From an uncultured Oscillospiraceae bacterium (lineage in GTDB: Bacteria; Bacillota; Clostridia; Oscillospirales; Ruminococcaceae), in the NCBI GenBank assembly GCA_964405305.1, contig CAYONL010000001.1, positions 6,167-51,757 of the forward strand: DNA of 45,591 bases, given 5' to 3'. The translations under genes were made by a program, and so were the position numbers. The notes below the pieces were generated by a model. The model worked only from the letters and a program-made list of their open reading frames with translations, made no database searches and was not told where the DNA came from. Below, in pieces: positions 16,841 through 43,305 of this stretch. Each line of letters begins with the position of its first letter. The first letter of the stretch is position 1.

Positions 16841-16843
16841 CTT

Positions 16844-28766: not shown

Positions 28767-28783
28767 CTGTCAGCCCTCCCGCC

Positions 28784-29733: not shown

Positions 29734-31551
29734 TCACTCGGTCTCTTTTTCTTTTTTCTTCTTCTGCGTAACTATGGCAAAGGCGTGAGTATAGATCGTG
29801 GGATCGGACAGCGCCTCCACCCTGATCTCATATACGCCCTCTTTGGCCGGCGCCGTATACACACCGTTGTTGTCCACTCGTCCGCCCTCGGCATCCAGCA
29901 GCTTGTAGCTGCACGCCTCCGTCGGCATGTTGATGAACACGGGCTTGATGTGCGCGGTGGCCTTGGGCTGCAGCACAAAGGTATCGGGATTTATCATTAT
30001 CATCTTCTCGCCCTCGTGCTTCGGCTTCAGCTTCTGGTTCACCTCGCCCAGACGGAAGGCGTACCAGCGTATGCGCAGGCTGATGAGATCCGTGGCTTCG
30101 TTCGGCCTGACGCCGACAACAAAGGTTCCGCGCTCCGGCAGCACCTTTACCGCCACATCCAGATTATAAAGCCGCTCCTCGTCGTCCAGCCTGTCGTCCG
30201 CGAATATGGTCGCGTCACCCAAAACTATCTCCGACGTGGTGGAGCGCTCGTCCGCCCGCAGATACTCTATGCCGATATCCACATACACCGGGCCTTTGCC
30301 GAGCCCATGCATGATCTCCTCTGAAAACAGCGGCTGGTGAGGCGCGTAACCGAGCCCCAGCGGAAAATCGAACACACCGCAGGCCGTAAGCTTCGCGTTA
30401 TCGCCGATCTCGGCCGCCGCGGGCACCTTTGCAACCGCCTCTGTCATCGCCGCGGCCTGTACCGGAAGCGCGCGCCCGGCCGCCGGATAGTAGCCCGCCA
30501 GCTGGTGCAGCATCATTAGCTGCTGGGCGTTGTAGCAGTACTGGGCGTAGGGCGACGGCGCTATGCTGTCGATTATGACGGAGTTTTTCTGCCTTATCAG
30601 GTTTATCTTCGCTATCCAAAGCCGCTCGTCATACGTGTCGCCCAGCGTCTTATCCATGGACTTGTTGTAGTAGCTGCTTATGTAATAGGAGGTGAGACCG
30701 CTTTCCACCGGACGCAGCGTCACATCAATGTTCTGCTTTACGGTGAAGTTTTCGTCGTTCTTTTGAATGGCGAAGCCCGAAACCGTCATGGTTACGGAGC
30801 CGCCCGCGCCCCATATGTAATCCTCCGGCGTGAAGAAGTTTTCAATGGCGTGGCTCTCTCCGCAGGCAAGGCGCAGATTGTTGGCCACCACGGCTATTCC
30901 CGGGCCTCCGCTCTTGCTGGTAAAGCCGGGCGCGTTCAGGTTGTAGGCAAAGGAAAACTCCCCCGTGCCCGGAGACAACCTGCTGATCACCGTTCTTACG
31001 GCTATGTCGCTGCCTCTGACCACGACCTTGGGAGAAAGCTGCGCCACCTCCACATCCGGGTCAGAATAAAGCACAGTGCGCTCAATGAACTCATCCATGG
31101 GCGAAGCGATCTTTGCGACCACGTTTTCGTCCAGCAGCATCAGCTTGAACGTCTCGCGCACTCTGTTGTGCTGAACTCCGGCGTTCTCTTCGCTCATTAC
31201 GCTGTAGACCTCGTCCACCGGCTGCTCGTCATACGCTATGCCGAGATACGCCGTGGAGGTCGAGAGCTGGCCGTACCCCTCTATGGTGGAGAGCTTGACG
31301 ACCTGGGTCTGGCCCACCACCACCTCGCGGCCGGAGGCATCGAACGCGCACCCTGCTTGCAGGATGATCGAGGCGTCGTCCGCCATGATCACCCCAAGCC
31401 CGGCCACTACACCATTCGCCCCCGTCACGCGGTTCACGAAACGGCGTTTGTCATTTATGTAGCGCTGTTCGGACTCAAAATCCTTCGCGGTCAAGAGTTT
31501 ACCGAAATAGTACCGGTTGCGCTCAAATGGGAAATATTTGCGGTTTAGCAT
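29734..31551 (-). CDS. Conserved hypothetical CIS-associated protein with a C-terminal Ig-like module
   Basis: 605 aa with no TM helix. The N-terminus FPFERNRYYFGKLLTAKDFESEQRYINDKRRFVNRVTGANGVVAGLGV resembles a motif I recall from hypothetical proteins in phage-tail-like clusters (unverified). The C-terminus YKLLDAEGGRVDNNGVYTAPAKEGVYEIRVEA looks Big/Ig-like. Confidence 0.55.
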   Translation of the reverse strand: MLNRKYFPFERNRYYFGKLLTAKDFESEQRYINDKRRFVNRVTGANGVVAGLGVIMADDASIILQAGCAFDASGREVVVGQTQVVKLSTIEGYGQLSTSTAYLGIAYDEQPVDEVYSVMSEENAGVQHNRVRETFKLMLLDENVVAKIASPMDEFIERTVLYSDPDVEVAQLSPKVVVRGSDIAVRTVISRLSPGTGEFSFAYNLNAPGFTSKSGGPGIAVVANNLRLACGESHAIENFFTPEDYIWGAGGSVTMTVSGFAIQKNDENFTVKQNIDVTLRPVESGLTSYYISSYYNKSMDKTLGDTYDERLWIAKINLIRQKNSVIIDSIAPSPYAQYCYNAQQLMMLHQLAGYYPAAGRALPVQAAAMTEAVAKVPAAAEIGDNAKLTACGVFDFPLGLGYAPHQPLFSEEIMHGLGKGPVYVDIGIEYLRADERSTTSEIVLGDATIFADDRLDDEERLYNLDVAVKVLPERGTFVVGVRPNEATDLISLRIRWYAFRLGEVNQKLKPKHEGEKMIMINPDTFVLQPKATAHIKPVFINMPTEACSYKLLDAEGGRVDNNGVYTAPAKEGVYEIRVEALSDPTIYTHAFAIVTQKKKKEKETE

Positions 31552-31608: not shown

Positions 31609-34600
31609 TTACTTTTCCTGCGGCGGCGGCGCGGAAGGACTTTGGCTTTGCGGAGCGGCCGGTTTCGGCCCTGCCTGCGCCGCGGGTTTTCCCGGGCCTT
31701 TTTTGTCCTTCTTTTTCTTGCCGAGCACCAGCATGGCGACCCCTCCGCCCACAACGCCAGCGCCCGCCACTCCGGCCACCCAGATCCAGGTGTTATCCTT
31801 CTTTATCTGATCCTTGGGCATCGTTATGGCGTAGCGGTACAGGCTGTCGGTCATTACGTAGGCCATACCGCCCGCGCGCCTGGCATCCAGAAGCTTTGCC
31901 GTACCATTGGAATTTATCTGCACTATCTCAAGCGTGGCGTTCTGATAATCGCTGTCTATGGGCATACCGATCTCGATCTCGCCCTCCGGCTGGATCTCCT
32001 CGCCGTTTCGCATGAGCTTGATCTCGTAAAGCTGCGCTATGCCGTACTCGCCGTTCACGCTGGAGGCGGCGCTCACGTCCTGCGTTCCGGGATTTATCTC
32101 GGTTATCACAAGCTCGCAGTCCTTGGGTATGACACCCGTTTTGGCCGAAACCAGCATACCGAAATCAGCGTTGGAAATGACGACGTCTTTAAAGGACGGG
32201 CCGGTGTCGGTATCGCTGTAGGTACGGCGGCTGGTGAGCCTGTCGGAGTTCGTCCCGGCGGGAATATCGCCGGCGCCCTCGCCCTCATCGACCGGCTCCG
32301 GCACCTTTACCGTGTAGGTCGCGGTGTTCACCATATCATTAAAAAACTGATCCTTTATGGCGATGGCCTTTATCGTCACCGGGCGCGTCACCGTTATCGG
32401 GCCGGTGTAAAGCGTCAGCGAATCAAGATTGCCGGCCGACGGGTCGGTGCCCTTTGTGCTGTAGTAAATGCTGGCGCCCTCCGTCGCCGTTTCAAGCGAT
32501 ATAGCGCTGTTTTGATCTATCTCTCCGCTGGTCACGCTGAACGTGGGCGCGCTGACCTGGCCGGCCTTCGTGTACACGAACTGCGCTATGTCGCTGTTGG
32601 CCTTGCCCGACACGACCGCTATGGCCTTTATTACGGACGAGTCGCGCAGCGTGATGTCCGGGTACGCCGTAACATCGTTGCCGAGCTTTGCAATATCGCC
32701 GTACAGGCTGCTGGAGGTGGTGGGATCGCTGCCGTCCGTCGTGTAGTAGATAAGCCCTTCCGCGGCGGTCAGCTTGATGGTGGCCCCCTCCATGAAGTAC
32801 GCGCCGGATTCCACAGAGGAGCTTGGCGCGGACGCCTTTTCCTGTATCTTGTAGGTCACGAGCGTGGTGGTTCCGGGTTTGCCGGAGGAATCGAACACGC
32901 TGACCTTGAGGTTTACCGTGGCGCCCGGCGCTCCGGATATTGCGACGGAGTTGCCGGAGGGAGAACTTGCCGTCGGGTCTGTCCCATCCGTAGTATAGTG
33001 TATGGTCGAGCCCGTAAGCGTAGTCGTCATGTTGACCACCGTGCCGTTGGCAATAGTGGAGCCCGTGGCCGGACTGACGGTCAGGTAGCCGTTATTGGTG
33101 GCGATGGTGTAGGTGGCGGTCATTATCTCGCTGGGGGTGTAACCGGTCTTGGTGGCGTAAGCCTGCACACTGACCGCCGCGCCGTAGTCGCCGTTCAGCA
33201 GCACCGTGTCTCCGTACATCAGGGCCTTGTTGTCCGCCTTTGTGGGGTCGGAGCCGTCGGTTGTATAAACTATTGTAGCGCCTTCCTTTGAGGTGAGCTT
33301 TATGCTGGTGCCCTTGCCCACCACGCTGCCCGTGGGTATTGAGGGCGTCGGCGTCGGAAGCGTCTCCGCCACCGTGTACTTAAACGAGGTGACCTCGCTC
33401 TTTACGCCGTCCTTGACCGCCATTGTGTATATGGTCATGTTGGCGTCGATCTTTATTGGCGTGCCCTCGTCAAACGTCTGGCTCTTGTTGGCCTTCAGGT
33501 TCGAGGCCTTGCCCGTCTCATAATAGATCGTGGCGCCCTCCGTGGTCGTTTTCAGCGTTACCTCCGTACCCTTGACTACCGAACCGGCCACCGGCGTAGC
33601 GTATACCGCCTGAACCGGCGCCGGAAGCTGATACGTAAACGTCGCAAGCTCGCTGGCCGCGTACTCGCCGTTTGGCACATACGCCACGGCCGAGACGATA
33701 TAGAAGGTCTTTATGTCGCCGGGCATCGTGAGGCCCGTATCGAAGTCATAGAGCTTTGTCTCCATCTTCTCGCGGTCAGCCTCGGAGGCCGCGTTGTACG
33801 CCAGCGGATCCGGCACCGTGCCGTTTGTGGTGTAGTATATATCCGCGTTCAGCGTTTTGGTGCGCAGACGTATGGATGACTCCGGCGCAAGAGTGATGAT
33901 ATCGTCGGTCGCCGTCACAGGGGTGCTCTGCTGCGTCACCTTTTCGGCCTTCATAAGGTCGTAATCAAAACGGCTTATAGCGCTGTTCTTCATCATGCCG
34001 CTTGTCGATACGGCCATGGCCCTTATTGACAGGGACGACTCCCCATCCTTCGGCGCCATGGATATCTGCTCCGTGGAGACATATTCCTTTGTGGCAGGAC
34101 CGTAATTCGCGGCGTTGGCGCCAGTGACATATTTAGCTATCAGCTCGCTGTTCGAAAGCTTCCCCAGATCTCCGCTCTCAAGATACTTGTTCAGCGAGGC
34201 CGTTTCGCTGCTGAGCAGCATATCCTTGCCGAATTTCTGCACGCTGCTGAGCGCCTTGTCGTAATTTATGCGTTCCGCAGGCAGCGGGTCGGAGCCGTCC
34301 AGCGTGTAATAAATGGTTGTATTGCCCGTACCGCTGGCCAGAGATATCAGCTCTCCCCGCTTGACCTCTGTCGGGTTGTTGGTGGTGGTTGCAGGCTCGG
34401 CGGTAACCGCCTCCACCTGCTTCACCTCGTTTATGGTGAACTGGAACGTGGATATGGCGCTCGGTCCCAGATTGCCTATGGTGTTGGGGTCGCCGTCGGC
34501 ATCCGCGCTGCTTACAGCCATGGCGCTTATGGTGAGGTAGTTCTGGCTGTTTTGCTGTACCTGCAGCGTTTGAGTGTATTTTTGCACCACGGGCTCTTCG

Positions 34601-37600
34601 TTTCCAAGGCGCTGGTAATACTCCCGGGCTTCCTCGGTGTCCTCAGTATATTTGCTCCGAACCTCGGTCGATGGCAGGCCCTTGTTGCTCTCCAGCCATT
34701 TTGCAAACGCCAGCTCCCAGTTCATCCTGAGCGCCACATCTTCCTTAGTCATCGTGTTGTTCGCCGTGGAGTAATAAATATCCGTTCCCAGATCTGACGA
34801 AATGAGCTGGATAGGAGAACCGACATCCACCGCCGTCACTCCCGAGACCTCTTTACCTCCGTAAAGCGCCGTCGGCACCTTGGCGTTATTGCGTATTTTC
34901 AGCGTGATGTTCAGTATGCCGCTGCTCACCTTATCCGTGTCGGAGCCGGTGATGTACATGGAGTAGGTCACACTGCTCCCCGCCGCGCCGCTGACTGTTA
35001 TCACCTGCGGAGCGACACGCTCATACACCGTCTTTAACGATTTGTTTATTATCTTCGGCGTTTCCTGCGCGTACGACATGGTTATGCCGGATACGGAGGT
35101 GATATTTCCCAGGGCATACTTTATCTGAGGCAGCAGGTACTTATCATTGCCTTCGAAGATCACGCGCTTTTCGGTCTGGCTTTCAGTCCCGGCCTTAATC
35201 ACTATACTGCCGTCTTCCGCCACGCTCTCCGCTATTCCATAGCCGATAACGCTCTTCATATTGCTTGGTATGTCTGCCTCGCTTACGGCCAGCGCGATCA
35301 GCTGTCCATCTTCAATGGTGTCGCCGTCTTTAAGCTTCGCGCCGATCTGCACATCTCCGTTATCGTCATAGTAGGCGATATGCACCTCCGGCGTCTGGTA
35401 AGCCGTCTTGAACTTGATGGCGGCCGACGTCACCGCGGAGTTTTTATACGCCGTGCTTGTCGGCACAAAAATCGCCCTCAGCTCCACCGCCGAGCCCGAT
35501 GTGCGCCCCGTCACATAATCTATTTCGGTTCCCTTTACATACTCTATACCCGAGGTCTTAGGATCGCTGCCGTTGAGCGTATACAGTATCTTGCCCTCCG
35601 GCTGTTTCCCGTCCATGCTCTCGTGGTACAGGGTAATCTTTGAGTCTCCAAACGTGTAATACAGGCCGGCATCAAAATCCACTCCGTCCAGCTTAACTTT
35701 TATGGCCGCGGGCGTCGCCCTGTCCGAGTTTTTATACGTGACATAGGTGGAGTAGCTTACAGGCCGCGCGCCTTTTGTATCCCGCGCCATAGCCGTTACG
35801 GTCATGGTGCTCTTATCCGACGGGAACGGGATGGCTTTGCCATCATACTCCGCAATCACCACCTCGGCGGTAGATGCCTTTACCGAACCGTCGGAATTTA
35901 ACGGTTCATAGGAGGTATCCGAATAAGAGACAGAGTACCATATCTCCACATTCGTACTGTCCTCCGGGTAGCTTATCGTTACGCCGCCGTCGTTGTCTAT
36001 CTTTTCACCCGCCGCGTTAGGAGATATGACGGGCTTTGCCAGCCTTGTTCCTATCGTGGCCGAGCCGGAACCTATTCCTTCAGTCGATGGCTCGGATGTG
36101 ATCATCCAGGCGTAAACCTCTACCGAGGAGCCGGGCGCCAAAACTCCCGTGTCTCCAATGCGCTCTTTCAGCGTGTTCACGCTAAAGGACAGAACCTCTG
36201 TCGCCGCGTCCCATGTCTCCCAGCCCGTGCCCGCTCCAGTATTCAGCGTGTTGGGGTTGCCAGGGGTCGTGACCGGTTTGGTGTAATTGTTGTTTTCTCC
36301 GCTGTTTATCGACCAATAGGTGTCTGTGGTAACATTTTTACCGCCTGTGGCGTCGTTCTTCTCGCCAACGAAGTCCGTTATCGTATCGCCGGCCAGGCTT
36401 CCCTCCTCGGCAAATTTTCTGAGGTCAAAAACCAAAACGTTGCTGGCCGAAAGCCCACTGTTTTTCGGGTCCTCGGCGTCCACCCAAACGGCCAGATAGC
36501 GCGTCGCGTCATTTGCTCCCACGCCGTCCCACGAAATCCCGTTTGTGGTATCATACACGGCTTTGCCGGACAGCGCGCTCAGTTCCTCCGTCGGCTTAAC
36601 TGTATAGCTGCCTGCGCTTCCGTTCATCAGCGCCAAATCGTTGCCGAACACATAGTAAATGAACGCCGGCTCGTTGACGCCGCCCACCACATTTGAATCG
36701 AAGCCGTTCAGGTTCTCCGGCAGATCCACCTTCACATTCATAAATGTGACGTTGTCGCCCTCGCTCCACCACGGATGCGCGCTGGCCTTCATGGTCGCTT
36801 TGTCCGGGGCCGCTTTTTTCACCGCGCTCCCACGGCTGTCGGCAAGGGACAGCGGCGTCACCTGGAACCCATCCAGACCGTAATCGTCCACAGGGTTCCC
36901 CAGATTGCTTATGACATAATTATCATCCGCCGCCGTCCCCGTGGTCACAGAAAGGTTCACAACAAAGATCTTGGCCGCCGTCGGATAGTTCACCGGCGTC
37001 GCGGTTATTGTGTAGCTGCCCACCGTTACGGTGGGCGCCACCGTCACACTGGCGGTCGAGGTCGTGCTCTTTGTCCCGGAGGAGGGTGAGCTTTGGCTGA
37101 CCGTCAGCCAGCCGCCGCTCGGCGACACTGTCCAGTTCCACGCGGTGCTGTCCACCGTTCCGGCACTCAGCGTAAACGTGTCGCTCGCATACACCGTTCC
37201 GTTATAGGCAAGCGTACCGCTGCTTCCATTGTGAGTATACGAGGTGCAGATCACCTCATTGGCCGCCGTGCCCACGATCACTGTAAATGTCTGGGCCAGC
37301 GACACCTGATTGCCCGGCTGAACTGTTATTATATATGTGCCCGGTACGGTTATGACGTCGCCCATCGTGAAAGAAACCGTGCTGCTTTGGGCGGCGACCG
37401 CGCTTGTCACGCCGTTTACCAGATTTCCGCTGGCAACATTATTCGGGTTCTTTATCGTCCAGTTCCAGACCGCCGTGCCCTGCGACAGCGAAGCTTTCAG
37501 TGTGAAAGTGTCACCAGGATATATCTGTTCCCCACTGTCGAGCAAGTTGGAGGCGCTGCCGTTGTATTTTGTACAGGACAGCGTACTCGTCACGCTTGTT

Positions 37601-40600
37601 CTCTTAATATTCACCCTGAAGGTGTACACATTGTAGGCTCCGGTCACCTGCACCGGCGAAAAACCGGAAGGCGTGGCGGTAACGGTGTAATAGTCTCCGT
37701 CCGCCGCCGTCTGTGAGCTTGAAAGCGTAAGGGTCAGCGTTCCCCTATTCCTGCTCAACGTTATTTTAGTGTCGTCGCTGACCTCTTTGCCATCCTTATC
37801 TTTCACGTTCCAATTCCATGTGGACGCCGACGCGCCGCCGTCCAACGACGCGGTAAGGGTCATGCTGGTCGATCCGCTGGCCGGCGCCGTCATGTCGCAG
37901 CTTGCGTCATACTCCGCGCCGCTCACCATTGTGTAATTGCTGTAGCCACTGCCGCCCGGAGTCAGTGTCTGGTTGGGCAGAACGTATATATTTGACGACG
38001 TTTTTGGCAGCGTAACTCCGTTTACCGTGGCGCCCGTGGAAAACGTCAGCACACCCGCCGTAGAAACAAAGGTGGTAAGCGACCCAGACGATACGTCAAC
38101 GCTGAAATTTATCGCGGCTGTAGTCGGCGGATCGCTTGACGACAGCTCCACGCCATTGCGGGCCACGGACCACAAAAACGTCTCCTCGGTGTAATGGCCT
38201 GAATTTTCGCTGTATGACACCTTGGCCGTTATAGCCTTATTCGCAAACTTGGTCACGTCGCCAACGGGAACGACCACCTTGTCGTCCGTCTCATCCATAT
38301 TGTTTTCTATGGTAAACCCTGTTGGCGTTTTATAGATTCTAACGTCGCACTGTCCGACCACATCTCCGTCGTCTTTGCCGCTATTCCCATTGCCGTCGTA
38401 ATAGGCATAGACCGTAACGGTTCCCGCCTCATGCCCGGTCACCGCAGCGGCACGGCCTTCTTCATTGGCGCCCACCGTCAGTTTTCCGCTGCTGTCCACC
38501 GTGGTGCCGCTATCGGTATTGCCCTCCACGCCCCATAAAAGCTTCGGAGTGCCGACGCCTGTGACCGTGGCCGTAAAGGTTCCGGTCGTGCCGGCCATAA
38601 AATATTTTACCGCTGTCGGCGCGGCAACGGTTATGGAGGAAACGCTCGGCGCGACCTCCACCAGACCGATGCTTTTTATAGTGCTGCTGCCGTAGGTGCC
38701 GGTTATTGTGACCGGCTTTCCAACGTCGCCGGCGCTCACGGTCAGTCTGCCGCTATTGGTGCTGGAAAAAACAGAGCTTGCTGTGGTATTGTTTCTCGTT
38801 CCGACTTCCCAATTTATCGTTACGTTGTTCAGCAAATGTATATTTTTGCCGTTTACCATCGCCAATGCCTGGTAAGTGCTTCCCGCCTTGAGCGTTATTT
38901 CCGTAACGTTGTTCAGCCCGACGCCGTTGTCAAGATATGTAACGTTCCCGTTGCCGTCGACCTTTATTTCGTATAAATACAGGTCAATGCTCTCGACCTC
39001 GGGAATTCCCTCTCCCTTGAGCACGCCCTTCGCGGAGGCAAACTGGCCCTGTGTTATATATTTAACGAAATAATACAGCCTCTCATTTATAAAGGCTTTA
39101 TCACGGGTTATGGAAACCGTCGTGTCGCTGTCGGTATATTTTACAGCCACCTCCGGCGGCGGTGTTTTAAGCCATTTAAGCGTAAGCGCACCCGAATCGT
39201 CCAGCGCCCACACGCCGTTATCATTTATGCCGCTATACGCGCTGCCTGTGCTGGCCACCACTTTGTCCGGAACATAGCTTGCCGACACGACAGTGCCCGC
39301 GCTAGTAACCGCAAAAATGTTAGAATTTGACCCTGCCAATGAAATGGAGAAGCCATCATGCTCCAGCGTCTGCATCAGCACCGAGTCAAGTGCCGCTGTC
39401 GTGCAGTAGTTACTATTATCGTAATCCTCCAGCAGATTCCCTATGGCGGAGGCCTGCGCCACGCTCTTGCTCGCCACAGAATTAGATCCTCCGACGCTGC
39501 TTCCGTCCTGATCCCAGCCGCCGCTGTTAAAAAGGTATACCCTGTACGTTCTTCCGGCCACCATACAGTTGGAGACCGTGTTGGACGCCGCCGCATTGCC
39601 GTTTCCTATTATGCCACCCAACCGGAAGGTCCCTTTAAAAGCCGTTGGCACGGACATTGTAAATTGGTTCCAGCCGCTTTGGATGGGACTCATGCTCATG
39701 GAGCCCATGGAGTAGCAGTCTTTTATAGTTGTTGACGACGCGGCAAAGCCCAGTATGCCGCCCTGATTTATGCTTCCGCCCATTTCAAAGGAAGCACCCG
39801 GAGTAAGCTCCGTATTTATATTTATAAAATCCATGCTGGTGTCTATTGCAACGTTTGTGTACACCTCGGATATTGTCGCGCTGCCCGAATACCCGACAAG
39901 ACCGATGTTAAAATACGGGTGGGCGACCCCTCTGTTATATTTTCCAAAATAGGATACATAGAGACCCGGCGACGTCAGGCCGGAGACCTGCACCTTTTCA
40001 AGCTTTGCGCCGTTCCACATGGAGCCCACCAGCGCGCCAATATCTATGGAGTAAGGTATTTTATCACTGCTTATGTCTTTTATGGACACCTTGTTTGTGC
40101 CCTTCAGCGAAACACGCAGATTGGTGACAACGCCTGAATCCAGCACCGCGAAAAGGCCGCCGTACGAATACTTGTTATCCGGGTTTTTCATTCCATGAGT
40201 CATGCTTACCAGATTGCTGTAATCGTCGCTCGACCGCGTATTTAAAGTTACCGTGTAGCGCCCGCCGTCCAGCGTGCCGCAGAAATAAGATATGGCTCCG
40301 CTGCCCCACTCGGCGATAACATCCGCCGCGAGGGTAAAGGTAACGCCTCTGCAGCCATCGTCGCGGTAATTTAACGTGGCTGGGTTTGTCAGAACCCCAT
40401 CATTGTTCACATAAATACTGTTTTTCGTGACCGCTTCTCTATTATTGTTTACATAATCCACGAAAGCTCTCCAGCCCACGCTATCATATATCGTGCCGCC
40501 GGAAATACGGTTGCCCCCATCAAGCGTAACGACGAGCCCTCTCATTTCCTCCGCTCCCGCCGGCTGCGTCAGCAAAACCGTTGGCACCACTACAGCCGCT

Positions 40601-40647
40601 ATGAGCAGCACAAAAGCAAGGACAGTCAGCACAGTACGTTTTTTCAT
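31609..40647 (-). CDS. Giant (3012 aa) surface protein: signal/anchor N-terminus, GLUG-type region, Ig-like modules, about 10 chitobiase-C/Fn3-like modules, C-terminal TM anchor and Pro-rich cytoplasmic tail
   Basis: The start overlaps the AAA+ ATPase stop (ATGA), with AAAGGAG 8 nt upstream. N-terminus MKKRTVLTVLAFVLLIAAVVVPTVLL. GLUG-like segments GGLFAVLDSG, IGALVGSMWNG, GGILGFAASS and GGIIGNGNAA. A Big_2-like module and three W-N-W modules. C-terminus WIWVAGVAGAGVVGGGVAMLVLG followed by KKKKDKKGPGKPAAQAGPKPAAPQSQSPSAPPPQEK. No LPXTG motif. Confidence 0.85.
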   Translation of the reverse strand: MKKRTVLTVLAFVLLIAAVVVPTVLLTQPAGAEEMRGLVVTLDGGNRISGGTIYDSVGWRAFVDYVNNNREAVTKNSIYVNNDGVLTNPATLNYRDDGCRGVTFTLAADVIAEWGSGAISYFCGTLDGGRYTVTLNTRSSDDYSNLVSMTHGMKNPDNKYSYGGLFAVLDSGVVTNLRVSLKGTNKVSIKDISSDKIPYSIDIGALVGSMWNGAKLEKVQVSGLTSPGLYVSYFGKYNRGVAHPYFNIGLVGYSGSATISEVYTNVAIDTSMDFININTELTPGASFEMGGSINQGGILGFAASSTTIKDCYSMGSMSMSPIQSGWNQFTMSVPTAFKGTFRLGGIIGNGNAAASNTVSNCMVAGRTYRVYLFNSGGWDQDGSSVGGSNSVASKSVAQASAIGNLLEDYDNSNYCTTAALDSVLMQTLEHDGFSISLAGSNSNIFAVTSAGTVVSASYVPDKVVASTGSAYSGINDNGVWALDDSGALTLKWLKTPPPEVAVKYTDSDTTVSITRDKAFINERLYYFVKYITQGQFASAKGVLKGEGIPEVESIDLYLYEIKVDGNGNVTYLDNGVGLNNVTEITLKAGSTYQALAMVNGKNIHLLNNVTINWEVGTRNNTTASSVFSSTNSGRLTVSAGDVGKPVTITGTYGSSTIKSIGLVEVAPSVSSITVAAPTAVKYFMAGTTGTFTATVTGVGTPKLLWGVEGNTDSGTTVDSSGKLTVGANEEGRAAAVTGHEAGTVTVYAYYDGNGNSGKDDGDVVGQCDVRIYKTPTGFTIENNMDETDDKVVVPVGDVTKFANKAITAKVSYSENSGHYTEETFLWSVARNGVELSSSDPPTTAAINFSVDVSSGSLTTFVSTAGVLTFSTGATVNGVTLPKTSSNIYVLPNQTLTPGGSGYSNYTMVSGAEYDASCDMTAPASGSTSMTLTASLDGGASASTWNWNVKDKDGKEVSDDTKITLSRNRGTLTLTLSSSQTAADGDYYTVTATPSGFSPVQVTGAYNVYTFRVNIKRTSVTSTLSCTKYNGSASNLLDSGEQIYPGDTFTLKASLSQGTAVWNWTIKNPNNVASGNLVNGVTSAVAAQSSTVSFTMGDVITVPGTYIITVQPGNQVSLAQTFTVIVGTAANEVICTSYTHNGSSGTLAYNGTVYASDTFTLSAGTVDSTAWNWTVSPSGGWLTVSQSSPSSGTKSTTSTASVTVAPTVTVGSYTITATPVNYPTAAKIFVVNLSVTTGTAADDNYVISNLGNPVDDYGLDGFQVTPLSLADSRGSAVKKAAPDKATMKASAHPWWSEGDNVTFMNVKVDLPENLNGFDSNVVGGVNEPAFIYYVFGNDLALMNGSAGSYTVKPTEELSALSGKAVYDTTNGISWDGVGANDATRYLAVWVDAEDPKNSGLSASNVLVFDLRKFAEEGSLAGDTITDFVGEKNDATGGKNVTTDTYWSINSGENNNYTKPVTTPGNPNTLNTGAGTGWETWDAATEVLSFSVNTLKERIGDTGVLAPGSSVEVYAWMITSEPSTEGIGSGSATIGTRLAKPVISPNAAGEKIDNDGGVTISYPEDSTNVEIWYSVSYSDTSYEPLNSDGSVKASTAEVVIAEYDGKAIPFPSDKSTMTVTAMARDTKGARPVSYSTYVTYKNSDRATPAAIKVKLDGVDFDAGLYYTFGDSKITLYHESMDGKQPEGKILYTLNGSDPKTSGIEYVKGTEIDYVTGRTSGSAVELRAIFVPTSTAYKNSAVTSAAIKFKTAYQTPEVHIAYYDDNGDVQIGAKLKDGDTIEDGQLIALAVSEADIPSNMKSVIGYGIAESVAEDGSIVIKAGTESQTEKRVIFEGNDKYLLPQIKYALGNITSVSGITMSYAQETPKIINKSLKTVYERVAPQVITVSGAAGSSVTYSMYITGSDTDKVSSGILNITLKIRNNAKVPTALYGGKEVSGVTAVDVGSPIQLISSDLGTDIYYSTANNTMTKEDVALRMNWELAFAKWLESNKGLPSTEVRSKYTEDTEEAREYYQRLGNEEPVVQKYTQTLQVQQNSQNYLTISAMAVSSADADGDPNTIGNLGPSAISTFQFTINEVKQVEAVTAEPATTTNNPTEVKRGELISLASGTGNTTIYYTLDGSDPLPAERINYDKALSSVQKFGKDMLLSSETASLNKYLESGDLGKLSNSELIAKYVTGANAANYGPATKEYVSTEQISMAPKDGESSLSIRAMAVSTSGMMKNSAISRFDYDLMKAEKVTQQSTPVTATDDIITLAPESSIRLRTKTLNADIYYTTNGTVPDPLAYNAASEADREKMETKLYDFDTGLTMPGDIKTFYIVSAVAYVPNGEYAASELATFTYQLPAPVQAVYATPVAGSVVKGTEVTLKTTTEGATIYYETGKASNLKANKSQTFDEGTPIKIDANMTIYTMAVKDGVKSEVTSFKYTVAETLPTPTPSIPTGSVVGKGTSIKLTSKEGATIVYTTDGSDPTKADNKALMYGDTVLLNGDYGAAVSVQAYATKTGYTPSEIMTATYTIATNNGYLTVSPATGSTIANGTVVNMTTTLTGSTIHYTTDGTDPTASSPSGNSVAISGAPGATVNLKVSVFDSSGKPGTTTLVTYKIQEKASAPSSSVESGAYFMEGATIKLTAAEGLIYYTTDGSDPTTSSSLYGDIAKLGNDVTAYPDITLRDSSVIKAIAVVSGKANSDIAQFVYTKAGQVSAPTFSVTSGEIDQNSAISLETATEGASIYYSTKGTDPSAGNLDSLTLYTGPITVTRPVTIKAIAIKDQFFNDMVNTATYTVKVPEPVDEGEGAGDIPAGTNSDRLTSRRTYSDTDTGPSFKDVVISNADFGMLVSAKTGVIPKDCELVITEINPGTQDVSAASSVNGEYGIAQLYEIKLMRNGEEIQPEGEIEIGMPIDSDYQNATLEIVQINSNGTAKLLDARRAGGMAYVMTDSLYRYAITMPKDQIKKDNTWIWVAGVAGAGVVGGGVAMLVLGKKKKDKKGPGKPAAQAGPKPAAPQSQSPSAPPPQEK
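32308..34893 (-). repeat. Eight consecutive chitobiase/beta-hexosaminidase-C-like (Fn3-like) modules, protein level
   Basis: Recurrent signature G-x-x-I-Y-Y-T-x-D-G-S/T-D-P ... I-x-A-x-A: GTDIYYSTANN, NTTIYYTLDGSDP, NADIYYTTNGTVP, GATIYYETGK, GATIVYTTDGSDP, GSTIHYTTDGTDP, GLIYYTTDGSDP, GASIYYSTKGTDP. The first three carry helical inserts. Two or three more diverged copies lie upstream. Confidence 0.65.
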
Positions 40648-42473
40648 ATCAAGCCGCTCCTTTCCGAAGGAAACATCATTCCAAATTTTTGGGGGAAAGC
40701 CTTCCCCTGCTTGCCATATTCAAGGCGCGCCGCTTCCGCTATATGCGCCATAGCTATCGGTTCATCCGCCGCCGCGGCCATATACGCCGCATTGACCGCC
40801 GTGTTTCTTATTCCCGCACCCGTAAGCTCCAGGCTCTCCGCCAAAAGTGGAAGATCCAGCGCCTTTTTTGGGGCCGCCTCCGGAAATATTCCCTGCCACA
40901 TACGCAGCCTTTGCGCCGCGTCCGGCAGAGGAAAATATATTATGTAGCCTATCCTTCTTCTGAATGCCTCGTCGAAATTTTGGAGCAGGTTTGTCGCCAT
41001 CAGGATAATGCCGTTGTACTGCTCTGTCCGCTGAAGCAGGTACGCTATCTCCGCGTTGGAGTACTTATCCTGCGAGTCCGCCGCGTCGCTCCTTCTTGCG
41101 AACAGGGCGTCCGCCTCATCGAAAAAGAGTATGCAGCCCGAGTTTTGCGCCGAGTCGAATATTTTCCCGATATTTTTTTGCGTCTCGCCCACGTATTTGC
41201 TTATAAGCTGCGATATGTCCGCCCGGTAAAGGCGCAGACCCAGCTCGTTCGCTATGACCGATGCCGCCAAAGTCTTGCCCGTGCCCGACGCACCGTAAAA
41301 CAGCGCCGATATCCCGACGCCATAGGGCACCTTTTCACCAAAGCCCCAGTCCTCAAACACCCTGTACCGCGCCCTTGCAAAGGCACATATATCCTCTATC
41401 TGCCTTTTCTGCGCCGCCGGCAGCACCAGGTCCTCCATCGTCTTGTTCGTTTCCAAAAGCTCCGCACTGCCGGCGAAGGAAAGACTGTTCACCTCTTTGA
41501 GCACCGCGAGCCGTTCGTCGGCGTCATCCATCCTGCCCAGCAGATTTTCGGCGGCGCACCTTTCGGCGGCCGTACGCAGTTGGCCCGGAGTCATACGGTA
41601 AAACCGCGCTGCCTGACGCCATTTCTTTCCGTCGTCCGCGCCCAGCCAAAGCTTCATGGCCGCAAGCCGCTGCTCCGAAGTCAGCTCCGGCACACGCCTT
41701 ACAAGGCTTGCTCCGCCTGTTTCCGGAGAGAACGCCGGGTCCTCCTCCGTCATCAAAAGCACGCCGCAGCCGTCCGCCAGCCGCCTCAGCTTTTCCTGAG
41801 AAAACTTCTTTGCCTCCGCTATGAGCACCAGCGCGTCATACAGCGCCGACGCCATGAGCACGGCCTCGTCGTCCGCGTTCTTTTCCGAGACTGTCAGCAC
41901 GGAATTTCCAAGCAGGCCCGCCGCACGTTTGAGCACGTCGCGCTTGCCGTACCCGCGGCCGCCCGTAATGAGCACGCAAACGGGATACACCGCGGACTCC
42001 AGCGAAGCAGCGAGAAAACTCGCCGCCTCCGCCGCCATATCCTCACCGTGGAACGCCGGCGCCATCTCGTCGCACCGCTCCAGTGAAACGCCCTCCGGCA
42101 GCCTGGGCGCGCGCTCCAACAGAAAGTCGCATACCATAGGGGCCAGGCTTCCGCCCTCCCCGCCAAATACGGATGAAAGCTCTCCGGCCTGCGCTCCGAA
42201 CGCCGAGAGCATCTCCCTCAGCTCCTTGCCGGAGGGCAGCGGGCGAAACGAAAACAGCCTTGCCGCCGAAATATCGAGCGCCAGACTTTCCGCCTCACTG
42301 AGTGAAAAAGCCGCCCTCACCCTCGCCATGGGATAAAATTCGCCGTTTTCCTCGCGCCGCAGCAGCTCTCCGTGCAGCTCAAAAAGACGCGAAAGCTCCT
42401 TCCCGTCACTAAAAGCGGCGTCCACAGCCCCTACCGCCTCAAAATATTCAGTTGCGGTCGGAGCATTACTCAT
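40644..42473 (-). CDS. CIS-associated AAA+ ATPase (Afp15/Pvc15 class)
   Basis: Walker A GASGTGKTLAASVIANELG and Walker B CILFFDEADALFARR in the C-terminal half, with a long non-ATPase N-terminal region. The track start at 42503 is a GTG inside the upstream gene. The ATG at 42473 (MSNAPTATEYF) overlaps the upstream stop (ATGAGTAA) and follows GAGGACGAGG. Confidence 0.82.
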   Translation of the reverse strand: MSNAPTATEYFEAVGAVDAAFSDGKELSRLFELHGELLRREENGEFYPMARVRAAFSLSEAESLALDISAARLFSFRPLPSGKELREMLSAFGAQAGELSSVFGGEGGSLAPMVCDFLLERAPRLPEGVSLERCDEMAPAFHGEDMAAEAASFLAASLESAVYPVCVLITGGRGYGKRDVLKRAAGLLGNSVLTVSEKNADDEAVLMASALYDALVLIAEAKKFSQEKLRRLADGCGVLLMTEEDPAFSPETGGASLVRRVPELTSEQRLAAMKLWLGADDGKKWRQAARFYRMTPGQLRTAAERCAAENLLGRMDDADERLAVLKEVNSLSFAGSAELLETNKTMEDLVLPAAQKRQIEDICAFARARYRVFEDWGFGEKVPYGVGISALFYGASGTGKTLAASVIANELGLRLYRADISQLISKYVGETQKNIGKIFDSAQNSGCILFFDEADALFARRSDAADSQDKYSNAEIAYLLQRTEQYNGIILMATNLLQNFDEAFRRRIGYIIYFPLPDAAQRLRMWQGIFPEAAPKKALDLPLLAESLELTGAGIRNTAVNAAYMAAAADEPIAMAHIAEAARLEYGKQGKAFPQKFGMMFPSERSGLI

Positions 42474-43305
42474 CCTCGTCCTCGTCTCCCTTGTTGCCGC
42501 CACCCGGCAGTTCTTCGTTCATAGCTTCCAGCTTGCGGCGCTCCCGCTCATTGCGATAATACTCAAACATCTTCGCCTTTTGCAGGTCGAAGGCCATGTT
42601 GATTCTGTGGAAGAAATTCTGTGACTGGGCCGCCTTGCGGTATATGAGCGCGTCAATGTGCTCCATATTGTGCAGCGTCCGCGTATCCATGGCCCGGAGC
42701 ATACGCACGCTCTCTGCATCGTTTCGTAAAACAGCGTCGCGGATATTCCGCTCATAGCTTTTTCTCCGCCGCATATCCGTCTGCCGCTGCTCCATCTCCA
42801 CTTCTTTTTGAAGGAACGGCATCGCCTTCTGCAACGCCTGCAGATCCACTCTTAACAAATACGGCTTGACGGAGCCCTCCGTCCACGGCTTGTTCTCCAT
42901 CTTATAAAGAAGCACGGAGCTGTTCTGCATACGCCTGGATGAAAAGGCCACGTTCTGGTTCCCGGTCTTCAGCTGCTTCATCATCATGTTTTCCTTCATG
43001 CTGCGCTGGTAACCGCTGGCGGCGTTGTCATAAATGGACGTTTTTATGTTTGCGAACAGAAAGCTCTGGCCCTTGCGCGGGTCATACGCCAGCTGTATGC
43101 GCCCGTACATCGTGTCCACCTTCATCAGGCGGTCGCAGCCGTAGTAGTCGGCCACGTCCCTGTCCTGCTCGTAGCCCTCCACCGGGGCGTGCTCCTCAAA
43201 CCTTGTATATACTATGTGCTGCGGGGCTGTAAGTCTGGCGGCAAGCTCGCTGTTCTCGTTTTCTTCCTCGCGGAGGCGATCCTGTTTTGCGGCCAAGGCT
43301 TTCAT
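42466..43305 (-). CDS. Hypothetical protein, first gene of the CIS operon (highly charged termini)
   Basis: Start trimmed to the ATG at 43305 (MKALAAKQDRLREEENENSE), which has GGGAGGGGG directly upstream. About 279 aa with the acidic C-terminus GGGNKGDEDEDE. No recognisable motif. Confidence 0.6.
   Translation of the reverse strand: MKALAAKQDRLREEENENSELAARLTAPQHIVYTRFEEHAPVEGYEQDRDVADYYGCDRLMKVDTMYGRIQLAYDPRKGQSFLFANIKTSIYDNAASGYQRSMKENMMMKQLKTGNQNVAFSSRRMQNSSVLLYKMENKPWTEGSVKPYLLRVDLQALQKAMPFLQKEVEMEQRQTDMRRRKSYERNIRDAVLRNDAESVRMLRAMDTRTLHNMEHIDALIYRKAAQSQNFFHRINMAFDLQKAKMFEYYRNERERRKLEAMNEELPGGGNKGDEDEDE

What the first reader, a model, noticed from the sequence alone, without database searches (positions are those of the whole stretch)
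31609..40647. Giant 3012-aa membrane-anchored adhesin-like protein translationally coupled to the CIS ATPase; possible fibre surrogate or anchor
The ORF starts with an ATGA overlap on the AAA+ ATPase stop, so it is almost certainly co-translated with CIS machinery.

Its architecture, read by eye:
- a cleavable or anchoring N-terminal hydrophobic segment;
- a GLUG-like region;
- Ig-like modules, including three W-N-W modules;
- about 10 chitobiase-C/Fn3-like modules with the IYYTTDGSDP signature;
- a 173-aa membrane-proximal domain;
- one TM helix (31720-31788);
- a 36-aa Lys- and Pro-rich tail (31612-31719) that should be cytoplasmic.

There is no LPXTG sortase motif and no SLH domain, so attachment is through the membrane.

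The locus lacks an Afp13-type tail fibre. This protein could provide target recognition, or it could couple an external binding event to the cytoplasmic CIS through its tail.

GC content appears lower in its 5' half. Two 60-nt lines I counted (39061 and 38821) gave 21/60 and 25/60 GC, against 39/60 for a sheath-gene line at 21361. That difference may reflect amino-acid composition or a separate origin.
Basis: partly seen in the sequence, partly recalled or inferred. Interest (0 to 1): 0.68.

Follow-up and report, generated by a model that had tools for sequence, protein, structure and literature searches.

The report
Giant surface adhesin in CIS operon
A 3,012-residue membrane-anchored surface protein with a fast-evolving outer tip is a fixed part of the gene cluster for a phage-tail-like injection machine in one group of gut Clostridia, so it probably finds or holds the target cell for that machine.

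Summary
The ORF (31609-40647, minus strand, 3012 aa), its ATGA overlap with the AAA+ ATPase stop, the signal peptide, the C-terminal TM helix with a basic tail, the three W-N-W modules, the Fn3_assoc/CHB_HEX_C_1 repeats and the GC counts are all real.

Main new result: the gene is not a stray adhesin. In 70 of 70 related Oscillospiraceae and Lachnospiraceae loci with enough upstream sequence, a gene with the same C-terminal region ends just before the same downstream gene. In 8 of 8 loci where it can be seen, the gene starts at the ATPase stop.

Conservation is polarised:
- the outer head is hypervariable and has deviant codon usage;
- the stalk and the membrane-proximal domain are conserved;
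- the cytoplasmic tail is not conserved (0-79 aa).

The membrane-proximal domain models as a GAIN-B/ZU5-like ("MAIN") beta-sandwich. About half of the orthologs carry the H-L/F-S autoproteolysis motif. This protein has S-L-Y instead.

The next gene is a Cis13-family (fibre-position) protein, so the locus does not lack a fibre-position protein. Signalling through a specific tail motif is not supported.

Best reading: a clade-specific target-adhesion or contact module of a probably membrane-anchored, T6SS-like Gram-positive CIS. All evidence is computational.

The parts
40644..40647 (-). ATGA overlap between the stop of the AAA+ (Cis15-position) ATPase gene and the start of the giant gene
   Evidence: Read directly. 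The same ATGA overlap is present in orthologous loci L081, L093, L100 and L107. The other four junctions lie 4 nt before to 24 nt after the end of the ATPase stop codon.
40552..40647 (-). N-terminal Sec-type signal peptide or signal anchor, aa 1-32 (MKKRTVLTVLAFVLLIAAVVVPTVLLTQPAGA|EE)
   Evidence: Hydropathy peak of 2.86 at aa 6-24 and an A-x-A site. All 8 full-length orthologs with a visible start have comparable N-termini.
39088..40551 (-). Outer head, aa 33-520: all-beta, GLUG-like by motif only, hypervariable
   Evidence: No Pfam hit at E <= 1 and no hit among 5.8 billion proteins in the word-index search. Only one homolog (P0005, the L081 ortholog) among 1.84 billion representatives. It is 38-49% identical to the nearest relative. 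The AF2 model is unreliable, pLDDT 39.6.
36928..38910 (-). Ig-like modules, aa 580-1240. Includes a widely shared Ig-like stretch (aa 580-750) and three W-N-W repeats (aa ~900-1240)
   Evidence: 48 of the 49 representative hits map to aa ~560-750. W-N-W occurs at aa 944, 1061 and 1170, and the internal repeats are 37-48% identical. The only Pfam signal is a weak I-set hit.
32308..35601 (-). Stalk of Fn3_assoc / CHB_HEX_C_1 modules, aa ~1683-2780
   Evidence: Pfam E 7e-50 and 1e-48, with 7 stretches each. The signature occurs at aa 1689, 2112, 2270, 2459, 2549, 2633 and 2727. This region aligns collinearly with all orthologs at 30-40% identity and is 86-93% identical to L081 over aa 2250-2700.
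32218..32244 (-). Conserved linker motif D-R-L-x-S-R-R-T-Y, aa 2802-2810, between the stalk and the membrane-proximal domain
   Evidence: L15 and R18 are nearly invariant in alignment A1 of 18 orthologs. Function unknown. The region has low confidence in the model.
31801..32175 (-). Membrane-proximal beta-sandwich, aa ~2825-2949: GAIN-B/ZU5-like ('MAIN'-like) domain. The turn between the last two strands is S-L-Y (aa 2935-2937, nt 31837-31845)
   Evidence: AF2 pLDDT is 76-88 over this stretch. The top Foldseek PDB hits are ZU5 (4d8o, 3ud1/2), GAIN (4dlo, 9mqr, 8oek) and FIIND (7crw, 7jn7), E 1e-4 to 2e-2. Invariant residues are E, G, Y, N, RR and Y.
31720..31788 (-). Single C-terminal transmembrane helix, aa 2954-2976, rich in Gly/Ala
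   Evidence: Hydropathy 2.05-2.08. 48% of its residues are small. A TM helix is present at this position in 39 of 45 distinct ortholog C-termini.
31612..31719 (-). Cytoplasmic tail, aa 2977-3012: KKKKDKK followed by a Pro/Ala/Gln-rich stretch. Not conserved
   Evidence: Only the basic cluster is shared. Tail length across orthologs is 0-79 aa, median 14.
40644..42503 (-). AAA+ ATPase (Cis15/Afp15 position), immediately upstream
   Evidence: Pfam AAA E 6e-29. It is a classic Cdc48/VCP-type module. The order LuxR - 286-aa protein - ATPase - giant is conserved in L099, L100 and L107; in L091, L093 and L108 the 286-aa protein, ATPase and giant are visible in the same order.
29734..31551 (-). Cis13-family (tail-fibre-position) protein, 605 aa, immediately downstream
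   Evidence: NCBIfam CIS13_fam E 3e-22. It is highly conserved, 43-87% identity. In giant-less relatives it follows the Tail_P2_I gene.
24083..29680 (-). Three conserved membrane proteins of the same operon: a 298-aa tail-anchored protein (TM 249-267), an 894-aa 4-TM HAMP protein, and a 656-aa single-TM MORN-repeat protein. These are candidate partners of the giant protein in the membrane
   Evidence: Pfam HAMP and MORN hits. All three are present in every giant-containing locus with coverage and also in giant-less relatives.

Best explanation
The gene encodes a type I membrane-anchored surface adhesin that is an accessory component of a contractile injection system (CIS) in one clade of Oscillospiraceae and Lachnospiraceae.

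SHOWN (architecture)
- It is exported by a signal peptide.
- It displays a hypervariable beta-rich head and Ig-like modules at the end of a conserved stalk of Fn3_assoc/CHB_HEX_C_1 modules.
- The stalk ends in a GAIN-B/ZU5-like ('MAIN'-type) beta-sandwich directly above a single Gly/Ala-rich TM helix.
- The cytoplasmic tail is short, basic and otherwise unconserved.

INFERRED (function)
- The head binds a surface on a target cell or particle.
- The protein either holds that target against the producer's envelope or reports contact to the CIS.
- The CIS is probably anchored to the cytoplasmic membrane from inside. The anchor would be the Cis13-like protein and the three conserved membrane proteins: the tail-anchored 298-aa protein, the 4-TM HAMP protein and the MORN protein.
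- Any coupling to the cytoplasmic machine most likely runs through TM or juxtamembrane contacts with those membrane proteins, not through the tail.
- In this particular protein the autoproteolysis motif of the MAIN/GAIN family is degenerate (S-L-Y instead of H-L/F-S). It is therefore predicted to stay in one piece. About half of its orthologs are predicted to self-cleave and could shed the ectodomain under force.
For: LOCUS IDENTITY
- The window carries sheath, tube, CIS_tube, VgrG-like, baseplate, Tail_P2_I, Pvc16 and AAA ATPase genes on one strand with short gaps.

SYNTENY
- 41 species-representative genomes and 29 metagenome loci were informative. In all 70 of 70, a homolog of giant aa ~2600-2990 ends 11 nt inside to about 150 nt before the Cis13-like gene.
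- Full-length orthologs are 1110 to over 3300 aa. They sit between the ATPase and the Cis13-like gene and start at the ATPase stop in 8/8 loci.

POLARISED CONSERVATION
- Against the nearest relative, identity is 38-51% over the outer half, 86-93% over the inner stalk, and 78-97% for the neighbouring CIS proteins.
- More distant orthologs have non-homologous heads.
- The 5' part has deviant GC3 and codon usage: RSCU correlation r is 0.79-0.81, against 0.96-0.97 for the comparison sets.

TOPOLOGY
- Signal peptide, C-terminal TM helix, K/R cluster after it.

MEMBRANE-PROXIMAL DOMAIN
- AF2 pLDDT is 76-88 and Foldseek returns ZU5, GAIN and FIIND hits.
- H-L/F-S lies in the turn between the last two strands in 19 of 45 distinct C-termini, plus the 'VVDHFSKYAVAVP' group.
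- This matches the MAIN family as described in preprint 10.64898/2026.05.12.724683: HX(S/T) cleavage, the order signal peptide - adhesion domains - MAIN - anchor, 'GPS' or 'ZU5' labels in the authors' structure-based tables, and frequent CHB_HEX_C_1 partners.

MEMBRANE-ANCHORED MODE
- The closest solved sheath is 9EZM from the haloarchaeal membrane-anchored, contact-dependent T6SS, E 6.6e-111.
- That paper places its nearest Cis11 relatives in Bacillota.
- TM-containing Cis13 anchors the Anabaena tCIS.
Against: - Every piece of evidence is computational. No expression, localisation or interaction data exist.
- The synteny survey was anchored on CIS genes (sheath, Cis13-like). It shows that this CIS clade always has the giant gene. 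It does not show that the giant's subfamily never occurs elsewhere.
- Unbiased protein searches with the C-terminal profile were crippled by the word index and returned only one partial hit.
- Related CIS loci function without any giant gene, so it is not a core part.
- The tail shows no conserved motif, and no contact with the membrane partners has been tested.
- The structural model rests on an alignment of two sequences. The Foldseek E-values are moderate (1e-4 to 1e-2) and TM-scores are low when normalised to the whole 292-residue query.
- MAIN-domain adhesins are a large generic family that, as described, has no link to CIS.
Confidence: 0.6

Rival explanations
1. Co-regulated but physically independent adhesin. 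The giant protein would be an ordinary MAIN-type surface adhesin used for biofilm, mucus or particle attachment. It would sit in the operon only so that it is expressed together with the CIS under the MalT/LuxR-type regulator, with no contact or signalling between the two.
For: - MAIN-domain proteins with Ig-like, CHB_HEX_C_1 and beta-solenoid modules are common in Bacillota and are described without any CIS link.
- The Fn3_assoc stalk modules recur in unrelated giant proteins P0001-P0003.
- The tail is unconserved.
- Giant-less relatives of the CIS exist.
Against: - The gene sits in a fixed position between two CIS structural or assembly genes across two bacterial families.
- Translational-coupling geometry is kept at both ends.
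- The anchor is a membrane TM helix, not the sortase or SLH anchors typical of MAIN proteins.
- The inner stalk and TM-proximal part are conserved as strongly as the CIS proteins.
Confidence: 0.2
2. Docking site or self/non-self marker. The exposed stalk or head would be the surface structure that CIS particles bind through their Cis13-like fibres. The particles could be the cell's own, released by lysis, or those of kin. The variable head would act as a strain-specific identity tag.
For: - The gene is adjacent to the Cis13-like gene and, in Lachnospiraceae, overlaps it.
- The head is extremely variable between close relatives.
- The first 1000 codons have GC3 below every window of the other genes, which suggests exchange of the head by recombination.
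Against: - No evidence exists for release of these CIS.
- The conserved TM proteins in the operon and the affinity of the sheath to a membrane-anchored archaeal system point to an intracellular, anchored machine.
- Nothing was tested directly.
Confidence: 0.1
3. Structural trans-envelope anchor that signals through its cytoplasmic tail. The Lys/Pro-rich tail would bind the baseplate or ATPase and transmit an outside binding event directly.
For: - The tail is predicted to be cytoplasmic.
- The start is coupled to the ATPase gene.
- The tail is shared with the nearest relative L081.
Against: - Across 45 distinct orthologs the tail ranges from 0 to 79 aa, median 14, with only a K/R cluster in common.
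- Six orthologs have no TM helix and tail at all.
- A conserved function is unlikely to rest on an unconserved segment.
Confidence: 0.05

Closest known systems
MAIN-domain (microbial GAIN-like) surface proteins, e.g. Bacillus subtilis YfkN (Brogan & Rudner, bioRxiv 2026, 10.64898/2026.05.12.724683)
   Same: - The domain order is the same: signal peptide, large adhesive ectodomain, GAIN-B/ZU5-like beta-sandwich, surface anchor.
- The partner domains are the same: CHB_HEX_C_1, Fn3_assoc, Ig-like, beta-solenoid.
- Many orthologs carry H-L/F-S in the turn between the last two strands, the position where YfkN cleaves (HF|S).
   Different: - The anchor is a TM helix, not sortase, SLH or a wall-binding domain.
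- The gene sits inside a CIS operon, a context not mentioned in that work.
- This window's copy has S-L-Y and so lacks both the His and the Ser/Thr nucleophile.
- No sequence-level match to any Pfam or PDB entry was found.
Adhesion GPCRs (GAIN domain plus tethered agonist plus membrane signalling unit)
   Same: - A giant adhesive N-terminal region is followed by an autoproteolysis-type beta-sandwich directly above the membrane.
- Foldseek hits include BAI3, BAI2 and CD97 GAIN domains.
- In cleavable orthologs the sequence after the motif (S-x-Y-A-I) resembles the H-L-T/S-x-F-A-V/I pattern of GPS sites. That pattern is recalled from my own knowledge and was not checked here.
   Different: - There is one TM helix, not seven, and no G-protein machinery.
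- Any signalling partner would be a separate protein, such as the HAMP protein.
- The alpha-helical GAIN-A subdomain is absent.
Afp13 / Pvc13 / Cis13 tail fibres of extracellular CIS
   Same: The proposed role is the same (target recognition). The pattern is also similar: a conserved machine-proximal part and a variable distal part.
   Different: - The giant protein is exported and membrane-anchored, whereas fibres are cytoplasmic and bound to the baseplate.
- It has no Cis13 N-terminal domain.
- The actual Cis13-family protein is the next gene.
Membrane adaptors of intracellular CIS: Anabaena tCIS Cis13 (TM helix), Streptomyces CisA, haloarchaeal Hbor_38620
   Same: Like them, it is a membrane protein encoded within a CIS cluster of a lineage whose machines work from inside the cell.
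   Different: - CisA is N-in/C-out with a long cytoplasmic N-terminus that is proposed to touch Cis11.
- tCIS Cis13 is a short baseplate-bound protein.
- Hbor_38620 has six TM helices.
- The giant protein is almost entirely extracellular with a minimal cytoplasmic part.
- The 298-aa, HAMP and MORN proteins of this locus are closer functional analogues of those adaptors.
Generic giant Fn3_assoc/CHB_HEX_C_1-repeat proteins (P0001-P0003)
   Same: They share the stalk repeat type, at 26-41% identity per module.
   Different: They have different N- and C-termini (RCC1 repeats and other C-terminal sorting regions) and no MAIN-like domain with a TM helix. They are not orthologs.

Membership tests
MAIN (microbial GAIN-like autoproteolysis-inducing) domain proteins | GAIN-B-like beta-sandwich fold next to the surface anchor | tested here: met
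   The AF2 model has pLDDT 76-88 over aa ~2825-2949. Foldseek top hits are ZU5, GAIN and FIIND at probability 1.00, E 1e-4 to 2e-2. The family's authors' own structure-based tables label the domain 'GPS' or 'ZU5'. Caveat: the alignment had only two sequences.
MAIN (microbial GAIN-like autoproteolysis-inducing) domain proteins | Catalytic H-X-S/T motif in the turn between the last two beta-strands | tested here: not met
   The window protein has S-L-Y at aa 2935-2937. By contrast, 19 of 45 distinct ortholog C-termini have H-L-S or H-F-S at the aligned position, plus the VVDHFSKY group. The window copy is therefore a predicted non-cleaving member, or a degenerate relative.
MAIN (microbial GAIN-like autoproteolysis-inducing) domain proteins | Signal peptide, then adhesive or enzymatic ectodomain, then MAIN domain, then cell-surface anchor | tested here: met
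   The anchor is a TM helix rather than the sortase, SLH or wall-binding anchors reported for most members.
MAIN (microbial GAIN-like autoproteolysis-inducing) domain proteins | Autoproteolysis with cleavage products that stay associated | not testable with these tools
   This needs the His-MAIN-SUMO assay or an immunoblot of a Ser-to-Ala mutant, as in the preprint.
Afp13/Pvc13/Cis13 tail fibre | N-terminal baseplate-binding Cis13 domain | tested here: not met
   The giant protein has no such hit in Pfam; it was not scanned against NCBIfam, the library that holds the CIS13_fam model. The neighbouring 605-aa protein does match CIS13_fam (E 3e-22).
Afp13/Pvc13/Cis13 tail fibre | Cytoplasmic assembly onto the baseplate (no export signal) | tested here: not met
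   The protein has an N-terminal signal peptide and a C-terminal TM helix.
Sortase-anchored (LPXTG) or SLH-anchored wall proteins | LPXTG-type motif before the C-terminal hydrophobic segment, or SLH domains | tested here: not met
   The only LPxT[GASN] match is LPKTS at aa 880 and the only [SP]PxTG match is at aa 2525; neither lies next to the TM helix. There is no SLH hit.
GLUG-motif proteins (Pfam PF07581) | Significant match to the Glug profile | tested here: not met
   No hit at E <= 1 in aa 35-520. One ortholog (L099) scores E 2.5e-5. The resemblance is at motif level only.
Fn3_assoc / CHB_HEX_C_1 repeat proteins | Matches above the Pfam gathering score | tested here: met
   167.3 bits against a cutoff of 23, and 163.2 bits against a cutoff of 22, with 7 stretches each.
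CisA-type CIS membrane adaptor (Streptomyces) | Bitopic N-in/C-out protein with a long cytoplasmic N-terminal region and an extracytoplasmic C-terminal domain | tested here: not met
   The predicted topology is the opposite: N-out after signal peptide cleavage, and C-in with 36-37 cytoplasmic residues.
Core component of this CIS family | Present in all related CIS loci | tested here: not met
   The gene is present in 70/70 loci of the clade where the Cis13-like protein is at least 40% identical. It is absent from loci where that protein is 27-31% identical. It is therefore a clade-specific accessory.

The most novel reading that the evidence does not exclude
A bacterial counterpart of adhesion-GPCR mechanosensing, wired to a contractile injection system.

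Proposed sequence of events:
1. The giant adhesin grips a neighbouring cell.
2. Tension on its MAIN/GAIN-like domain changes the short peptide left at the membrane. In cleavable orthologs this would happen by pulling the two fragments apart. In non-cleaving ones such as this protein it would happen by deformation.
3. The change is read by the extracellular loops of the co-encoded 4-TM HAMP protein.
4. The cytoplasmic domain of the HAMP protein then triggers, or positions, the membrane-anchored CIS through the Cis13-like and tail-anchored proteins.
5. The machine therefore fires only on contact.

This would be the first signalling role for the membrane-retained fragment of a MAIN domain. It would also be the first contact sensor described for a Gram-positive CIS.
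Probability: 0.15. Interest if true: 0.9.

Novelty: new variant of a known kind. Interest (0 to 1): 0.7.

Why it matters
How CIS of Gram-positive bacteria reach a target through a thick wall is an open question. So is whether they work from inside the cell, like a T6SS, or only after lysis. Known examples (Streptomyces CisA, Anabaena Cis13, the haloarchaeal anchor) concern attachment to the inner face of a membrane. None has an extracellular recognition part.

Here a whole clade of gut Oscillospiraceae and Lachnospiraceae carries a giant exported adhesin with an exchangeable head, fixed between the CIS ATPase and the fibre-position gene and next to three conserved membrane proteins. Several members of the clade are cultured isolates. 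This gives a concrete, testable candidate for target selection or contact sensing.

It also places a MAIN/GAIN-like domain directly on a TM helix, beside a HAMP protein. For MAIN domains no downstream signalling is known, so this would be the first such context.

For engineering, a swappable head on a conserved stalk is the kind of module used to retarget injection systems.

Tried and rejected
1. The search for homologous proteins with the full protein returned only three repeat-sharing, unrelated giants. With the head (aa 33-520) it returned nothing. With the C-terminal profile A1 it returned one partial protein. The word index is saturated by repeats and low-complexity words, so these negatives say little.
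2. Exact-sequence look-ups of the giant protein and the ATPase found nothing on record.
3. AF2 of the head (aa 33-540, with the one homolog) gave mean pLDDT 39.6. I did not use it for fold search.
5. A profile of the C-terminal domain against PDB sequences gave only chance-level hits. PDB sequence searches with aa 1-1166 and aa 1240-1700 were also empty.
6. The A1 scan of viral contigs and tblastn of the MAIN-like domain against plasmids and phages found nothing.
7. SEA/SEAL-type autoproteolytic domain: I considered this first and dropped it, because the fold hits are to the ZU5/GAIN beta-sandwich.
8. Cargo or effector role: rejected because of the signal peptide and TM anchor.
9. PADLOC and PHROGs scans of the neighbours added nothing specific.
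10. Literature searches for a described Clostridia CIS with a surface adhesin found none.


Full report
**1. What is in the window**

All large genes lie on the minus strand. Read 5' to 3' on that strand, the order is as follows.

| Coordinates | Gene product |
|---|---|
| 43480-44979 | MalT-TPR/LuxR regulator, followed by a strong terminator |
| 42466-43326 | 286-aa protein |
| 40644-42503 | AAA+ ATPase |
| 31609-40647 | Giant ORF |
| 29734-31551 | 605-aa protein |
| 28784-29680 | 298-aa protein with a C-terminal TM helix |
| 26082-28766 | 894-aa 4-TM HAMP protein |
| 24083-26053 | 656-aa single-TM MORN protein |
| 23486-24070 | Pvc16-type cap |
| 22738-23421 | 227-aa protein |
| 20915-22633 | Sheath |
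| 20409-20858 | Tube |
| 7450-19773 | Further tube, tape-measure-position, CIS_tube, VgrG-like, two baseplate-wedge and Tail_P2_I genes |
| 3367-7336 | Two dynamin-like GTPases |
| 333-3192 | rnfC, rnfD, rnfG |

This is a contractile injection system (CIS) locus of an anaerobic Firmicute.

**2. Checking the observation**

Confirmed points:
- The ORF is 3012 aa.
- Its ATG overlaps the ATPase TGA as ATGA.
- GGAG lies 8-11 nt upstream of the start.
- Hydropathy finds exactly two hydrophobic segments. One is aa 6-24, inside a signal-peptide-like N-terminus that ends AGA|EE. The other is aa 2957-2975, followed by KKKKDKK and a Pro/Ala/Gln-rich end.
- No sortase motif lies near the C-terminus and there is no SLH domain.
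- W-N-W occurs at aa 944, 1061 and 1170, in repeats of about 110 aa.
- Pfam gives Fn3_assoc and CHB_HEX_C_1 with 7 significant stretches each. The signature motif occurs 7-8 times, so 'about 10' is somewhat generous.
- The three 60-nt GC counts are exact.

The GC effect is real and lies in the third codon position:
- GC3 is 0.61-0.65 in the first 1000 codons and 0.75-0.76 in the last 1000.
- The value of 0.626 for the first 1000 codons is below the minimum (0.676) of 1023 windows of equal length from the other 24 genes.
- Codon-usage correlation with the rest of the locus is 0.79-0.81 for the 5' half. It is 0.96-0.97 for the 3' half and for other gene sets.

Points that did not hold:
- Pfam finds no Glug match at E <= 1 in this protein. 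The head does carry GG(I/L)xG and 'DGxxYT' motifs, and one ortholog has a Glug hit.
- Pfam also does not call the Ig-like modules.

**3. Is it part of the CIS?**

I ran two surveys.

*Survey anchored on the sheath.* A scan of one genome per species returned 80 loci. In those with a sheath at least 63% identical, the block Cis13-like / 298-aa / HAMP / MORN / Pvc16 / 227-aa / sheath is conserved. At the edge of the 10-kb flank lies the 3' end of a gene homologous to giant aa ~2600-2990.

*Survey anchored on the 605-aa protein.* A scan of metagenome contigs returned 80 more loci.

Results from the two surveys together:
- 73 loci have a 605-aa homolog at least 40% identical. Three of them have too little upstream sequence to judge.
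- All 70 others have the giant-type C-terminus ending just upstream.
- Full-length orthologs range from 1110 to over 3300 aa. All have a signal-peptide-like start and a C-terminal TM helix.
- Where the ATPase is visible (8 loci), the giant gene starts 4 nt before to 24 nt after the end of the ATPase stop codon. Four of these have the same ATGA overlap.
- In Lachnospiraceae the 3' end overlaps the next gene by 4-11 nt.

The carriers include cultured Anaerotruncus massiliensis, Ligaoa zhengdingensis, Hominiventricola filiformis, Laedolimicola ammoniilytica and Anaerosacchariphilus hominis.

Limitation: both surveys started from CIS genes. They show that this CIS clade always has the gene. They do not show that the subfamily is found nowhere else. 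The searches that could have tested this failed for technical reasons.

**4. The gene is specific to one clade**

In loci where the 605-aa homolog is only 27-31% identical, it follows the Tail_P2_I gene directly. It is then followed by a tail-anchored protein, a MORN protein, Pvc16, the ATPase and HAMP-type 4-TM proteins. No giant gene is present.

The 605-aa protein matches NCBIfam CIS13_fam over its N-terminal 133 residues (E 3e-22). So the locus does have a protein in the fibre position. The giant gene is an insertion between Cis15 and Cis13 in a rearranged cluster.

**5. Pattern of conservation**

Against the nearest relative (L081), the neighbours are 78-97% identical. The giant protein shows a gradient:

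| Region of the giant protein | Identity to the L081 ortholog |
|---|---|
| aa 1-1500 | 38-51% |
| aa 1500-2250 | 53-68% |
| aa 2250-2700 | 86-93% |
| Last 300 residues | 75-78% |

L081 also has a 195-aa insertion after aa 1242. More distant orthologs align only from about aa 1500-2200 onward and carry unrelated heads.

In 1.84 billion representative proteins, the first 512 residues have a single homolog. That homolog is the L081 ortholog.

The cytoplasmic tail is 0-79 aa (median 14), with only a K/R cluster in common. Six orthologs end in an amphipathic GWLQNIWxxLMMLL-type helix instead.

**6. The membrane-proximal domain**

Alignment of 18 orthologs shows three conserved motifs: DRLxSRRTY..GPS, EIGLPIPxxYQN and TRRSGGxAY.

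An AF2 model of aa 2721-3012 is confident only for aa ~2825-2949 (pLDDT 76-88). That stretch forms a beta-sandwich with one helix.

Foldseek against the PDB puts these structures at the top (E 1e-4 to 2e-2):
- ankyrin and UNC5 ZU5 domains;
- GAIN domains of BAI3, BAI2 and CD97;
- the NLRP1 and CARD8 FIIND.

The turn between the last two strands reads H-L-S or H-F-S in 19 of 45 distinct C-termini, and also in the VVDHFSKYAVAVP group. In the window protein and its closest relatives it reads S-L-Y or S-L-G.

A 2026 preprint describes exactly such domains as MAIN domains:
- They are microbial GAIN-B-like domains that cleave at HX(S/T).
- They sit between large adhesive ectodomains and a surface anchor.
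- They are enriched in Bacillota.
- No signalling role is known for the retained fragment.

The preprint's supplementary tables label the domain 'GPS' or 'ZU5' and list CHB_HEX_C_1 and Fn3_assoc among the partner domains.

I therefore file the domain as MAIN-like. The window copy is predicted to be non-cleaving, because a defining catalytic motif was tested and is absent.

**7. Mode of action of the machine**

- The nearest solved sheath is 9EZM (E 6.6e-111). It comes from the haloarchaeal T6SS-like CIS, which stands on the cytoplasmic membrane and mediates contact-dependent antagonism.
- That paper finds the closest Cis11 relatives in Bacillota, and it proposes a multi-TM protein as the anchor.
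- In Anabaena a TM-bearing Cis13 anchors the CIS. In Streptomyces the bitopic CisA is needed for firing.
- The present operon encodes a Cis13-like protein followed by a tail-anchored protein, a HAMP protein with two predicted outside loops and a 280-aa cytoplasmic domain, and a MORN TM protein.

A membrane-anchored, T6SS-like mode is thus plausible but unproven.

**8. Synthesis**

Shown:
- the architecture;
- the fixed position in the operon across two families;
- the polarised conservation;
- the MAIN-like fold, at moderate confidence;
- the degenerate motif in this copy.

Inferred: the head binds a target, and the protein serves the CIS by adhesion or by contact sensing through membrane partners rather than through its tail.

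The main rival is an adhesin that is only co-expressed with the CIS.

I found no description of this arrangement in the literature searches.

I rate it a new variant of known kinds (a CIS membrane accessory and a MAIN-domain adhesin), with interest 0.7.

Noticed in passing
window 3367-7336 (minus strand): Two overlapping dynamin-like GTPase genes (622 and 704 aa, Dynamin_N) follow the last baseplate gene (Tail_P2_I). No minus-strand terminator lies between them and that gene. An 11/12 promoter-like site appears only after them, before rnfC. They look like the tail end of the CIS operon. A membrane-remodelling or membrane-repair pair attached to an injection system would be worth a look.
   Followed up: partly
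window 29734-31551 (minus strand): The 605-aa protein is a Cis13-family protein by its N-terminal 133 residues (NCBIfam E 3e-22). It has no TM helix. Its N-terminus also weakly matches Anabaena tCIS All3314 (7b5h_AA, E 0.008). It is the most conserved non-core gene of the block (43-87% identity).
   Followed up: partly
window 26082-28766 (minus strand): An 894-aa protein has 4 predicted TM helices, two predicted extracellular regions (about 317 and 160 aa), a HAMP domain and a 280-aa cytoplasmic domain with no kinase or other known output. It is conserved in every related CIS locus, and L117 has two copies. It looks like a sensor inside a CIS operon.
   Followed up: partly
window 24083-26053 and 28784-29680 (minus strand): A single-TM MORN-repeat protein and a 298-aa tail-anchored protein (TM at 249-267) are conserved with the CIS, including in giant-less relatives where the TM positions are 81 and 246. 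They are candidate membrane anchors, analogous to tCIS Cis13 or to CisA.
   Followed up: no
window 7450-42503 compared with loci L117 and L119: The gene order here is a circular permutation of the order seen in more distant relatives. There, the order is baseplate, P2_I, Cis13-like, tail-anchored protein, MORN, Pvc16, 227-aa protein, ATPase. Here, the ATPase-to-Pvc16 block precedes the sheath.
   Followed up: partly
window 32218-32244 (giant aa 2802-2810): A strongly conserved D-R-L-x-S-R-R-T/S-Y/F motif lies in an otherwise acidic, variable linker just before the MAIN-like domain. It could be a processing site, an extra strand of the domain or a partner-binding site.
   Followed up: no
loci L017, L018, L019, L046, L058, L061 (3' ends of the giant orthologs): Six orthologs lack the TM helix and basic tail. 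They end in a short amphipathic GWLQNIWxxLMMLL-type helix, which implies a different mode of attachment.
   Followed up: no
locus L081:311-9940: The nearest ortholog (3209 aa) has a 195-aa insertion after the position of window aa 1242. That is one extra module, which shows ongoing gain and loss of modules in the outer half.
   Followed up: no
window 43328-43435 (minus strand): A 12-bp all-GC hairpin with a T-run lies right after the MalT/LuxR-type regulator gene. Promoter-like sites follow, before the 286-aa gene. The CIS operon therefore probably starts at the 286-aa gene, which is conserved together with the ATPase in related loci.
   Followed up: partly
window 8587-13623 (minus strand): There are two consecutive baseplate-wedge (Cis11/gp6-like) genes of 964 and 698 aa. 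The haloarchaeal T6SS-like cluster, whose sheath is the closest solved relative, has the same arrangement.
   Followed up: no
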